Source of the DNA: Escherichia coli
Lineage (GTDB): Bacteria; Pseudomonadota; Gammaproteobacteria; Enterobacterales; Enterobacteriaceae
Assembly: GCF_050320075.1 (NCBI RefSeq)
Contig: NZ_CP190018.1
Strand: one strand, 5' to 3'
Length of the DNA: 64,000 nucleotides
The position numbers are program-made. Of the stretch, positions 26,201 to 29,200 are shown one piece after another; within the stretch, counting starts at the first letter, position 1, and the number at the start of each line of letters is the position of its first letter.

Positions 26201-29200
26201 CATCAACACCACTTCCGACTCGGAAATTCTGCTTAATATCTTCGCCAGCGAGCTGGACAACTTCCGCCACTACCCGCTGGAAGCCGACAATATTTTCGCT
26301 GCCATTGCTGCCACAAACCGCTTAATCCGCGGCGCGTATGCCTGCGTGGCGATGATTATCGGCCATGGTATGGTTGCTTTCCGCGATCCAAACGGGATTC
26401 GTCCGCTGGTACTGGGAAAACGTGATATTGACGAGAACCGCACAGAATATATGGTCGCTTCCGAAAGCGTTGCGCTCGATACACTAGGCTTTGATTTCCT
26501 GCGTGACGTCGCGCCTGGCGAAGCGATTTACATCACTGAAGAAGGGCAGTTGTTTACCCGTCAATGTGCTGACAATCCGGTCAGCAATCCGTGCCTGTTT
26601 GAGTATGTATACTTTGCTCGCCCGGACTCGTTCATCGACAAAATTTCCGTTTACAGCGCCCGCGTGAATATGGGCACGAAACTGGGCGAGAAAATTGCCC
26701 GCGAATGGGAAGATCTGGATATCGACGTGGTGATCCCGATCCCGGAAACCTCTTGTGATATCGCGCTGGAAATCGCGCGTATTCTGGGCAAACCGTACCG
26801 TCAGGGCTTCGTTAAAAACCGCTATGTAGGCCGTACCTTCATCATGCCGGGTCAGCAGCTGCGTCGTAAGTCCGTGCGCCGTAAACTGAACGCCAACCGC
26901 GCCGAGTTCCGCGATAAAAACGTCCTGCTGGTCGACGACTCCATCGTCCGTGGCACCACTTCTGAGCAGATTATCGAGATGGCACGCGAAGCCGGAGCGA
27001 AGAAAGTGTATCTCGCTTCTGCGGCACCGGAAATTCGCTTCCCGAACGTTTATGGTATTGATATGCCGAGCGCCACGGAACTGATCGCTCACGGTCGCGA
27101 AGTAGATGAAATTCGCCAGATCATCGGTGCTGACGGGTTGATTTTCCAGGATCTGAACGATCTGATCGAAGCCGTTCGCGCTGAAAACCCGGATATCCAG
27201 CAGTTTGAATGCTCGGTGTTCAACGGCGTCTACGTCACCAAAGATGTTGATCAGGGCTACCTCGATTTCCTTGATACTTTACGTAATGATGACGCCAAAG
27301 CCGTGCAACGTCAGAACGAAGTGGAAAATCTCGAAATGCATAACGAAGGATGATGCCTTCGCTCAGGGTGCCGGTCTGGCACCCTGACTTGCAACTCCCG
27401 CCGAAATCCTGCAAAGTCTGCCTGCAAGTCTGACAGGGCAACTATTTATGAAACGACTTATTGTGGGCATCAGCGGTGCCAGCGGCGCGATTTATGGCGT
27501 GCGCTTATTACAGGTTCTGCGCGATGTCGCAGATGTTGAAACGCATCTGGTAATGAGCCAGGCCGCGCGCCAGACCTTATCTCTTGAAACGGATTTTTCC
27601 CTGCGCGAAGTGCAGGCGTTAGCTGATGTGACGCACGATGCGCGCGATATTGCTGCCAGCATCTCTTCTGGTTCTTTCCAGACGCTGGGGATGGTGATTT
27701 TACCCTGTTCGATCAAAACCCTGTCCGGCATTGTCCATAGCTATACTGATGGCTTACTGACCCGTGCGGCAGATGTTGTGCTGAAAGAGCGTCGCCCGCT
27801 GGTGCTCTGCGTGCGTGAAACACCATTGCACTTAGGCCATCTGCGTTTAATGACTCAGGCAGCAGAAATCGGTGCGGTGATTATGCCTCCCGTTCCGGCG
27901 TTTTATCATCGCCCGCAATCCCTTGATGATGTGATAAATCAGACGGTTAACCGTGTACTCGATCAATTCGCCATAACGCTTCCTGAAGATCTCTTTGCCC
28001 GCTGGCAGGGCGCATAACTCCGCTGTTGCCCTGTTTCAGGGCAATTTTGCAACCGCGATCAAATCCTCGACATTTTGTTTCTGCCATTCAATCGAAACGC
28101 TGCGATTCAACCGCTATACCTGCTATCTTCAACTTCAGGACAATAATGCAACGTCTTATTAACATATTTAACGTTGAATGTTACTGTTGTCGTCAAGATG
28201 GCATAAGACCTGCATGAAAGAGCCTGCAAACACACAACACAATACACAACATAAAAAAGCCATTTTCACTTGAGGGTTATGTATGAAGAAGTCGATTCTC
28301 GCTCTGTCTTTGTTAGTCGGTCTCTCCGCAGCGGCTTCCAGCTATGCGGCGCTACCGGAGACGGTACGTATCGGAACTGATACCACCTATGCGCCGTTCT
28401 CATCGAAAGATGCTAAAGGTGATTTTGTTGGCTTTGATATCGATCTCGGTAACGAGATGTGCAAACGGATGCAGGTGAAATGTACCTGGGTTGCCAGTGA
28501 CTTTGACGCGCTGATCCCCTCACTGAAAGCGAAAAAAATCGACGCCATTATTTCGTCGCTTTCCATTACCGATAAACGTCAGCAGGAGATTGCTTTCTCC
28601 GACAAGCTGTACGCCGCAGATTCTCGTTTGATTGCCGCCAAAGGTTCGCCGATTCAGCCAACGCTGGATTCACTGAAAGGTAAACATGTTGGTGTGCTGC
28701 AGGGATCAACCCAGGAAGCTTACGCTAACGAGACCTGGCGTAGCAAAGGTGTGGATGTGGTGGCCTATGCCAACCAGGATTTGGTCTATTCCGATCTGGC
28801 TGCAGGACGTCTGGATGCTGCGTTACAAGATGAAGTTGCTGCCAGCGAAGGATTCCTCAAGCAACCTGCTGGTAAAGACTTCGCCTTTGCTGGCTCATCA
28901 GTGAAAGACAAAAAATACTTCGGTGACGGCACCGGTGTAGGGCTACGTAAAGATGATGCTGAACTGACGGCTGCCTTCAATAAGGCGCTTGGTGAGCTGC
29001 GTCAGGACGGCACCTACGACAAGATGGCGAAAAAGTATTTTGACTTTAATGTCTACGGTGACTGATACGTCGCAGGGAAGCTGTACCTGATGGAATGATC
29101 ATCATGGTGCACGCCAGGTTTGTTGCACTATCGTGGTGCATTGAAATGCATACTTAAGCATTTTTAATGAAAAATAATACGTCTAACGGGGCGGGATATT

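What the first reader, a model, noticed from the sequence alone, without database searches (positions are those of the whole stretch)
28199..28214. Sigma-54-type promoter in front of argT
tggcataagacctgca has the GG and GC dinucleotides at the exact -24/-12 spacing of sigma-54 promoters, about 70 nt upstream of argT. That would place the basic-amino-acid binding protein under nitrogen (NtrC-type) control, separately from the downstream hisJQMP genes.
Basis: partly seen in the sequence, partly recalled or inferred. Interest (0 to 1): 0.3.

Follow-up and report, generated by a model that had tools for sequence, protein, structure and literature searches.

The report
Known sigma-54 promoter of argT

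Summary
The window is E. coli ubiX-argT-hisJQMP. TGGCATAAGACCTGCA sits at 28199-28214(+), with GG-N10-GC 71 nt before the argT ATG. The pattern alone is not above chance (3 hits in 64 kb vs about 2 expected). Other evidence is decisive. All 81 enterobacterial argT loci keep TGGCA-N7-TGC[A/T] upstream of the ATG while the spacer and flanks drift. The identical 17-mer is a published sigma-54 ChIP-seq peak in E. coli K-12, a ChIP-chip site in Salmonella and an in-vitro holoenzyme site. argTp is a named, NtrC-responsive sigma-54 promoter.

"Separately from hisJQMP" is only half right. hisJ has its own sigma-70/ArgR promoter, but hisJQMP is also in the NtrC regulon. The only strong NtrC sites (29095-29111, 29124-29140) lie in the argT-hisJ spacer, under the strong published NtrC ChIP peak. 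No good NtrC site lies 100-150 bp upstream of argTp.

The sigma-54 site also sits just downstream of a sigma-70 start site. In published RNA-seq, argT is about 4-fold higher without sigma-54 in non-inducing conditions. The C/A-rich leader is a known type of GcvB sRNA target.

Verdict: real, correctly recognised, already known.

The parts
28199..28214 (+). argTp core sigma-54 promoter, TGGCATAAGACCTGCA (-24 GG at 28200-01, -12 GC at 28212-13)
   Evidence: Sequence. Present in 81/81 loci and invariant in alignment A1. Identical 17-mer is E. coli sigma-54 ChIP-seq peak OS22, a Salmonella ChIP-chip site and a gSELEX peak. Identical in K-12.
28225..28282 (+). Predicted 58-nt argT 5' leader from the sigma-54 start (about 28225). 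It contains a C/A-rich tract at 28227-28258 and a Shine-Dalgarno GAGGG at 28272-28276.
   Evidence: Start predicted with Bonocora's rule, 19 nt downstream of the motif centre; the paper gives a distance of 58 to the ATG. Composition is 25 A, 13 C, 7 G, 13 T. GcvB pairs with argT upstream of the RBS. The start site itself is inferred, not mapped here.
28283..29065 (+). argT CDS (lysine/arginine/ornithine periplasmic binding protein)
   Evidence: ORF and RefSeq annotation.
28159..28193 (+). Sigma-70-like promoter immediately upstream of the sigma-54 element. My reading: -35 TTAACA 28159-64, extended -10 TGtTACTGT 28179-87, start about 28193.
   Evidence: Schaefer 2015 Table S3 puts the sigma-54 motif at +6 to +22 of a sigma-70-like start and reports in-vitro competition. 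The hexamer assignment is my inference from the sequence. The -35 block is conserved across genera and the -10 is not. The simple consensus scan did not call it.
28027..28043 (.). Palindrome TGCCCTGTTTCAGGGCA followed by a T-run. Likely the ubiX terminator hairpin, and orthologous in position to NtrC-type palindromes in other genera. Centred at -190 from the predicted sigma-54 start.
   Evidence: Best upstream NtrC-like 17-mer, only 8/12. The same alignment columns hold 10-11/12 NtrC-type sites in Klebsiella, Raoultella and Entomohabitans. Function in E. coli not established.
29095..29111 (.). NtrC site A (ATGATCATCATGGTGCA). The right half-site is perfect and the left half is degenerate.
   Evidence: 8/12. 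GGTGCA is conserved across genera. Lies under Brown 2014 NtrC ChIP-seq peak 12, which maps to window 29075-29155.
29124..29140 (.). NtrC site B (TGCACTATCGTGGTGCA), a near-consensus NtrC palindrome 29 bp from site A
   Evidence: The only zero-mismatch TGCAC-N7-GTGCA in 64 kb and the highest score in the window, 11/12. Conserved. Lies under the 23.7x NtrC ChIP peak.
29145..29183 (.). Two ARG-box-like 18-mers (29145-62 and 29166-83) 3 bp apart; probable ArgR operator of the hisJ promoter
   Evidence: About 14 of 18 matches each to the ARG-box consensus, which I recalled from memory and compared by eye (sequence). TGCATAnTTAAGCAT is nearly invariant. The literature states that two ARG boxes separated by 3 bp lie just upstream of the hisJ -35. 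The exact coordinates are my inference.
29222..29237 (+). Sigma-54-like element before hisJ, TGGCACGATAAGTGTA. The -24 half is perfect. The -12 is TGT in E. coli and GC in Citrobacter and Salmonella.
   Evidence: TGGCAC is invariant in 21 genera. NtrC sites A and B lie at -145 and -116 from its predicted start. No sigma-54 ChIP peak is reported there in E. coli. Function unproven.
29286..32338 (+). hisJ, hisQ, hisM, hisP: the second binding protein and the shared membrane/ATPase components that ArgT needs for transport
   Evidence: ORFs and annotation. ArgT and HisJ both work with HisQMP2.

Best explanation
This is argTp, the established sigma-54 (RpoN) dependent, NtrC-activated promoter of argT in E. 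coli and its relatives.

How it works:
- Sigma-54 holoenzyme binds the -24 GG and -12 GC as a stable closed complex that cannot open by itself.
- Under nitrogen limitation, NtrB phosphorylates NtrC. NtrC-P assembles on enhancer DNA, contacts the closed complex by DNA looping, and uses ATP hydrolysis to open it.
- Transcription then starts about 12 nt after the GC (about 28225), giving an mRNA with a 58-nt C/A-rich leader. The sRNA GcvB can repress that leader.
- The product, ArgT, scavenges Lys, Arg and Orn through the HisQMP2 transporter encoded just downstream.

Which steps rest on what:
- Shown by published experiments on this exact sequence: sigma-54 occupancy in vivo and in vitro, NtrC occupancy of the locus, and higher argTp activity when NtrC-P is raised.
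- Shown here: identity of the sequence to K-12, and strict conservation of the -24/-12 bases across the family.
- Inferred: the exact start site, and which NtrC sites act on argTp in E. coli.

When NtrC is inactive, the same bound holoenzyme appears to damp a sigma-70-like promoter whose start lies 5 nt upstream of the motif.
For: - Sequence and spacing.
- E. coli locus with argT annotated.
- Intergenic region identical to K-12 with no indels, so K-12 data transfer.
- Sigma-54 ChIP-seq peak OS22 centred on ATGGCATAAGACCTGCA, 58 nt from predicted start to argT. The same region also appears in the list of ChIP-chip regions that paper compares against.
- RpoN holoenzyme gSELEX peak in the ubiX-argT spacer (61% alone, 55% with NtrC).
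- Salmonella: same sequence, ChIP-chip positive, 3.5-fold WT/rpoN with a constitutive activator, and listed among four experimentally established sigma-54 operons.
- NtrC ChIP-seq peaks at argT and hisJQMP in N-starved cells.
- argTp-lacZ and argT mRNA are 2.4- to 3.2-fold higher in a glnK mutant, in which the authors expect more NtrC-P-driven expression.
- argTp-gfp was the strongest of 12 sigma-54 promoters tested.
- A review-level statement that argT is sigma-54/NtrC dependent and not ArgR regulated.
- Conservation in 81/81 loci, invariant columns, and information content dropping to near zero within a few bases either side. Published PSSM conservation scores stay between 9.5 and 12.7 in the first 13 genomes of the table and fall to about 0-1.5 in most of the remaining columns.
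Against: - The motif frequency alone is at chance level in the window.
- Its PSSM score (9.46) and ChIP enrichment (FAT 12) are modest compared with the strongest sigma-54 promoters. EcoCyc still listed it as 'predicted' in 2015.
- No canonical NtrC site lies within 450 nt upstream in Escherichia, Citrobacter or Salmonella. The NtrC ChIP peak at argT is weak and was added by eye.
- No IHF consensus site was found.
- In non-inducing medium, sigma-54 lowers rather than raises argT mRNA.
- I could not retrieve a mapped 5' end for the sigma-54 transcript. The primary papers (Ames & Nikaido 1985; Schmitz et al. 1988; Zimmer et al. 2000; Reitzer & Schneider 2001) are not held in the library.
Confidence: 0.95

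Rival explanations
1. Chance match: the GG-N10-GC pattern is a coincidence and argT is expressed from ordinary sigma-70 promoters only.
For: The pattern occurs at the chance rate in the window, 3 vs 2.04 expected. Two other matches in the window appear non-functional. A sigma-70-like start exists just upstream.
Against: Conservation in 81/81 loci with a drifting spacer and flanks. Direct sigma-54 binding in vivo and in vitro to this exact sequence. NtrC-linked expression.
Confidence: 0.01
2. The element is mainly a repressive sigma-54 'parking site'. Holoenzyme bound at +6 to +22 of a sigma-70-like promoter blocks it, and activation by NtrC is secondary.
For: Schaefer 2015 reports argT expression with rpoN at 23% of vector and in-vitro sigma-70 abortive synthesis reduced 10-60% by sigma-54. 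RNA-seq RPKM values are 127 with WT sigma-54 and 550 without it. A plausible TTAACA / TGtTACTGT promoter sits at the right distance.
Against: This does not exclude activation; both can hold in different conditions. Many unrelated metabolic genes also change between those strains (for example aceBAK, adhE, accBC), so part of the in-vivo effect may be indirect. The sigma-70 -10 region is not conserved across genera whereas the -24/-12 bases are invariant. Positive nitrogen/NtrC control is documented independently.
Confidence: 0.1
3. In E. coli the enhancer for argTp is not upstream. It is the strong tandem NtrC site pair about 0.9 kb downstream in the argT-hisJ spacer, acting by a long loop and possibly shared with hisJ.
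For: No upstream site better than 8/12 in E. coli, against 11/12 at 29124-29140. The strong NtrC ChIP peak (23.7x) maps onto the spacer sites. The weak argT peak (5.4x) maps directly onto the promoter (window 28155-28235), as expected for looping cross-links. No sigma-54 ChIP peak is reported at hisJ that could use those sites. Upstream NtrC palindromes present in other genera are eroded in the Escherichia/Citrobacter/Salmonella group. NtrC is reported to act from 650-840 bp away at relA.
Against: - The spacer sites sit at a classic -116/-145 from an invariant TGGCAC in front of hisJ, so hisJ is the simpler target.
- Plasmid argTp-gfp and a chromosomal argTp-lacZ fusion at lac are active. The fragment limits were not available to me. 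If they exclude the spacer, local sequences suffice.
- NtrC ChIP peaks at other promoters also coincide with the sigma-54 motif at this resolution.
- Weak NtrC sites are hard to recognise by consensus.
Confidence: 0.2

Closest known systems
argTp of E. coli K-12 / argTr of Salmonella Typhimurium (sigma-54, NtrC-dependent promoter of argT)
   Same: It is this element. The 16-mer is identical and the whole ubiX-argT intergenic region is identical to K-12. The sequence is the one published as a sigma-54 site in both species.
   Different: Nothing material. The window comes from a non-K-12 E. coli strain (100% identical to strain CFSAN061763). All 16 substitutions relative to K-12 lie outside the regulatory elements.
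glnAp2 (archetypal NtrC/sigma-54 promoter)
   Same: Same -24/-12 architecture, the same activator, and the same logic of a closed complex opened by an ATPase bound at enhancer sites.
   Different: From established knowledge, glnAp2 has strong tandem NtrC sites at about -110/-140. argTp in E. coli has no recognisable site there. That geometry is found instead in front of hisJ, at -116/-145 from the sigma-54-like element there.
Overlapping sigma-54/sigma-70 promoters such as glmY/glmZ, and the Schaefer class I/II sites (chaC, patA, mdfA)
   Same: A sigma-54 site positioned so that bound holoenzyme competes with a sigma-70 promoter.
   Different: At argT the sigma-54 site lies downstream of the sigma-70 start (class II) rather than being fully superimposed on it. 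It is also a productive, activator-dependent promoter.

Membership tests
Sigma-54 (RpoN) -24/-12 promoter | GG and GC dinucleotides separated by 10 nt within the extended consensus TGGCAC-N5-TTGCW | tested here: met
   TGGCAT-AAGAC-CTGCA at 28199-28214. It differs from the consensus at two positions (T for C, C for T). Published PSSM score 9.46.
Sigma-54 (RpoN) -24/-12 promoter | Correct placement: intergenic, oriented towards a gene, at a short leader distance | tested here: met
   Lies in the 265-nt ubiX-argT spacer on the + strand. Predicted start is 58 nt before the ATG.
Sigma-54 (RpoN) -24/-12 promoter | Selective conservation of the contact bases relative to the spacer and flanks | tested here: met
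   81/81 loci. TGGCA and TGC are invariant in the unanchored alignment A1, whose mean column identity is 59%. Flanks fall to 0.1-0.4 bits.
Sigma-54 (RpoN) -24/-12 promoter | Physical occupancy by sigma-54 holoenzyme | tested here: met
   This is published data retrieved here, not my experiment: ChIP-seq OS22, gSELEX and Salmonella ChIP-chip. I verified that the sequence is identical to K-12.
Sigma-54 (RpoN) -24/-12 promoter | Transcript 5' end about 12 nt downstream of the GC, dependent on rpoN | not testable with these tools
   No mapped sigma-54 5' end was found in the accessible papers, and the primary papers are not held. The start at about 28225 is a prediction.
NtrC (GlnG) regulon | Expression rises with NtrC-P or nitrogen limitation | tested here: met
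   Published data: listed as upregulated in N-starved cells, citing Zimmer 2000. argTp-lacZ is 2.4x and argT mRNA 3.2x higher in a glnK mutant, in which the authors expect more NtrC-P-driven expression. NtrC is named as the activator.
NtrC (GlnG) regulon | NtrC binding sites (TGCACC-N5-GGTGCA type, usually tandem) at about -100 to -150 from the start | tested here: not met
   Nothing scores 9/12 or better between 27950 and 28198. The best is 8/12 at -190, and 8/12 occurs about 0.6 times per 250 nt by chance. Strong sites lie at +878/+907. A weak NtrC ChIP signal is nevertheless present on the promoter. So the canonical geometry is not met, although NtrC control itself is documented.
NtrC (GlnG) regulon | IHF site or intrinsic bend between enhancer and promoter (common but not obligatory) | tested here: not met
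   No WATCAANNNNTTR match with 1 mismatch or fewer in 28018-28282 or 29066-29285. Intrinsic curvature was not tested.

The most novel reading that the evidence does not exclude
In the Escherichia/Salmonella/Citrobacter lineage, argTp may have lost its own upstream NtrC sites, which are still present in Klebsiella, Enterobacter, Raoultella and others. It would now be activated by the strong tandem NtrC enhancer about 0.9 kb downstream in the argT-hisJ spacer. A single enhancer would then loop back across the argT gene to argTp, and might also serve the degenerate sigma-54-like element in front of hisJ.
Probability: 0.2. Interest if true: 0.35.

Novelty: already known. Interest (0 to 1): 0.06.

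Why it matters
As a discovery it does not matter. argTp has been known as a sigma-54/NtrC promoter since the 1980s in Salmonella, is mapped genome-wide in E. coli, and is even used as an engineering part. The result is useful as a calibration point: an unaided reader correctly recognised a real sigma-54 promoter from sequence alone.

The one open detail is which NtrC sites actually drive argTp in E. coli. None is recognisable upstream, and the strong pair lies between argT and hisJ. Settling this would clarify how one enhancer region coordinates the two binding-protein genes with their shared transporter.

Tried and rejected
- **Motif enrichment in the window:** at chance level, so it cannot carry the argument.
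- **Simple sigma-70/terminator scan of 27900-29400:** found no sigma-70 promoter. It also missed the published hisJ and argT sigma-70 promoters, so its silence says little.
- **Rfam scan of 27900-29400:** nothing at E-value 1 or better. The conserved upstream blocks are not a known RNA.
- **IHF consensus:** no site in either intergenic region.
none. 28027-43 scores 8/12 and doubles as the likely ubiX terminator hairpin.
- **Sigma-54 occupancy at the hisJ-proximal TGGCAC element:** not reported in Bonocora's main text or supplements, searched by gene name and by coordinate.
- **Other two pattern matches (yfcC, alaA):** no reported binding.
- **Literature dead ends:**
  - The 'dhuA/argTr' text search returned only noise.
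  - Reitzer & Schneider 2001, Zimmer 2000 and Ames & Nikaido 1985 are not held.
  - I did not look up Schmitz 1988 or Caldara 2007; both are in subscription journals, and I cite them second-hand.
  - One search was rejected for syntax.
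Full report
**1. 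The observation**

The 16-mer tggcataagacctgca is at 28199-28214 on the + strand. GG (28200-01) and GC (28212-13) are separated by 10 nt, which is the sigma-54 -24/-12 spacing. The GC lies 71 nt before an ATG at 28283.

Megablast places the window in E. coli. It is 100% identical to strain CFSAN061763 and matches 5,425 of 5,426 complete genomes. The local gene order is purF-ubiX-argT-hisJ-hisQ-hisM-hisP. So the gene is argT and the coordinates are right.

The pattern alone is not evidence. TGGCA-N7-TGCW occurs 3 times in the 64 kb against 2.04 expected, and 34 of 100 shuffles reach 3. The other two matches are inside yfcC (antisense) and alaA (sense), and neither is a reported sigma-54 site.

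**2. Why this hit is real**

*Conservation.* I fetched 80 orthologous loci from one genome per species across the Enterobacteriaceae. With one E. coli reference locus (L001) added, all 81 carry TGGCA-N7-TGC[A/T], 66-105 nt upstream of the argT ATG. There are 16 different spacer variants.

In a MAFFT alignment of 22 genera that was not anchored on the motif, TGGCA and TGC are invariant columns, while mean column identity is 59%. Information content falls from 2 bits to 0.1-0.4 bits within a few bases either side. In that last calculation the core positions are fixed by the anchoring regex. The independent results are the 81/81 hit rate and alignment A1.

*Published experiments on the identical sequence.* The stretch 27990-29300 has no indels relative to K-12 BW25113. 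All 16 substitutions lie outside the regulatory elements, so K-12 data transfer directly.
- Bonocora et al. 2015 list sigma-54 ChIP-seq peak OS22 with motif ATGGCATAAGACCTGCA, 58 nt from the predicted start to argT. Their supplement shows the site conserved across related genomes.
- Shimada et al. 2021 find an RpoN-holoenzyme gSELEX peak in the ubiX-argT spacer.
- Samuels et al. 2013 find TGGCATAAGACCTGCATG bound in Salmonella. argT is 3.5-fold higher in wild type than in the rpoN mutant when a constitutive activator is supplied. They count argT among four experimentally established sigma-54 operons, citing Ames & Nikaido 1985.
- Brown et al. 2014 list argT and hisJQMP among NtrC-bound units upregulated in N-starved cells.
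- Wang et al. 2016 show argTp-lacZ and argT mRNA up 2.4- to 3.2-fold in a glnK mutant, in which they expect more NtrC-P-driven expression.
- Ma et al. 2020 use 'argTp' as the strongest of 12 sigma-54 promoters tested.

**3. Mechanism**

From established knowledge of sigma-54 promoters:
- The holoenzyme forms a closed complex on GG/GC.
- Phosphorylated NtrC, bound to enhancer DNA, loops to the complex and opens it using ATP.
- Transcription starts about 12 nt past the GC, predicted here at about 28225. This start is inferred and was not mapped in any source I could read.

The 58-nt leader is 43% A and 22% C. argT is a verified GcvB target in Salmonella, the site is conserved in E. coli with very high interactome counts, and pairing occurs upstream of the RBS. 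So transcription from this promoter is followed by sRNA control.

**4.

*(a) NtrC sites.* The suggested check fails. Between 27950 and 28198 nothing matches TGCACC-N5-GGTGCA better than 8/12, and 8/12 occurs about 0.6 times per 250 nt by chance.

That best hit is 28027-43, TGCCCTGTTTCAGGGCA followed by a T-run. It looks like the ubiX terminator hairpin and is centred at -190. In Klebsiella, Enterobacter, Raoultella, Pluralibacter, Pseudocitrobacter and other genera, this part of the alignment and a site about 30 bp further upstream hold NtrC-type palindromes matching 10-12 of 12. These sites are eroded in Escherichia, Citrobacter and Salmonella.

The only strong NtrC sites in the window are in the argT-hisJ spacer:
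- 29124-29140, TGCACTATCGTGGTGCA. It scores 11/12 and is the only zero-mismatch TGCAC-N7-GTGCA in 64 kb.
- 29095-29111, a half-conserved partner 29 bp upstream.

Brown's strong NtrC peak (23.7x, assigned to hisJQMP) maps to window 29075-29155, exactly over these sites. The argT peak (5.4x, 'added from visual interpretation') maps to 28155-28235, on the promoter itself.

*(b) 'Separately from hisJQMP'.* hisJ does have its own sigma-70, ArgR-repressed promoter. I can see two ARG-box-like 18-mers at 29145-62 and 29166-83. But hisJQMP is also in the NtrC regulon, and the cluster is treated as an argT-hisJQMP operon.

In Schaefer et al.'s RNA-seq the five genes move together. RPKM values for wild-type sigma-54 / sigma-54 deltaRI / no sigma-54 are:
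- argT: 127 / 598 / 550
- hisJ: 109 / 651 / 703
- hisM: 18 / 71 / 64
- hisP: 16 / 60 / 75

Only a weak terminator-like hairpin separates argT from hisJ. An invariant TGGCAC sits before hisJ (29222-27), at -116/-145 from the NtrC sites. Its -12 partner is GC in Citrobacter and Salmonella but TGT in E. coli. No sigma-54 ChIP peak is reported there in E. coli.

*(c) The rpoN test.* Schaefer et al. 2015 place the sigma-54 motif at +6 to +22 of a sigma-70-like start. They report argT expression at 23% when sigma-54 is present, with 10-60% inhibition in vitro. From the sequence I read this promoter as -35 TTAACA (28159-64), TGtTACTGT (28179-87) and a start at about 28193. That assignment is my inference.

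So in nitrogen-replete medium an rpoN mutant is expected to show more argT mRNA, not less. Many other metabolic genes also change between those strains, so part of the in-vivo effect may be indirect.

**5. Comparison with known systems and novelty**

This is not merely like argTp; it is argTp. Compared with glnAp2 it lacks recognisable NtrC sites at -110/-140. Compared with glmY/glmZ-type overlapping promoters, its sigma-54 site lies just downstream of the sigma-70 start rather than on top of it.

Novelty: already known. The only unsettled point I found is which NtrC sites serve argTp in E. coli. The candidates are weak local sites and the strong pair 0.9 kb downstream. I give the downstream-enhancer reading about 0.2. 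The older primary papers that I could not access may already settle it.

**6. Verdict**

Interest is low (0.06).

Noticed in passing
window 29095-29140: Tandem NtrC sites lie in the argT-hisJ spacer: a half-degenerate one at 29095-29111 and a near-perfect one, TGCACTATCGTGGTGCA, at 29124-29140. The second is the best NtrC-type site in the whole 64 kb. Both lie under the strong published NtrC ChIP-seq peak assigned to hisJQMP and are conserved across genera.
   Followed up: yes
window 29222-29237: A sigma-54-like element, TGGCACGATAAGTGTA, sits 49 nt before the hisJ ATG. TGGCAC is invariant in 21 genera. The -12 partner is GC in Citrobacter and Salmonella but TGT in E. coli, as in the pspA and hydN promoters. 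No sigma-54 ChIP peak is reported there in E. coli, so why the -24 half is invariant is unexplained.
   Followed up: partly
window 29145-29183: Two ARG-box-like 18-mers, AATGCATACTTAAGCATT and AATGAAAAATAATACGTC, lie 3 bp apart between the NtrC sites and the hisJ promoter. This matches the published description of the ArgR operator of hisJ.
   Followed up: partly
window 28227-28258: The argT leader has a C/A-rich tract, CAAACACACAACACAATACACAACATAAAAAA. Its length varies between genera but it is always C/A-rich. This is the kind of element bound by the GU-rich R1 region of the sRNA GcvB, and argT is a verified or conserved GcvB target.
   Followed up: partly
window 28159-28193: A sigma-70-like promoter lies immediately upstream of the sigma-54 element. 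My reading is -35 TTAACA, extended -10 TGtTACTGT and a start at about 28193. Published data say bound sigma-54 holoenzyme represses it. The -35 block is deeply conserved and the -10 is not.
   Followed up: partly
window 28050-28085 and 28112-28125: Two deeply conserved upstream blocks have no assigned factor: TTTTGCAACCGCGATCAAATCCTCGACATTT (with GATCA.ATCC invariant in 22 genera) and CTGCTATCTT. They are not a known RNA family and do not match the IHF or NtrC consensus.
   Followed up: no
window 28027-28043: The palindrome TGCCCTGTTTCAGGGCA plus a T-run after ubiX looks like the ubiX terminator. The same alignment columns hold NtrC-type palindromes (10-11 of 12) in Klebsiella, Raoultella and Entomohabitans. 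This suggests an NtrC site eroded or was converted in the Escherichia lineage.
   Followed up: partly
window 37820-37835 (+) and 47821-47836 (-): Two further matches to TGGCA-N7-TGCW fall inside yfcC (antisense) and alaA (sense). Neither is a reported sigma-54 ChIP site, and their number fits chance. In Schaefer's RNA-seq, alaA is about 6-fold higher without sigma-54, but many unrelated genes also change in that comparison.
   Followed up: partly
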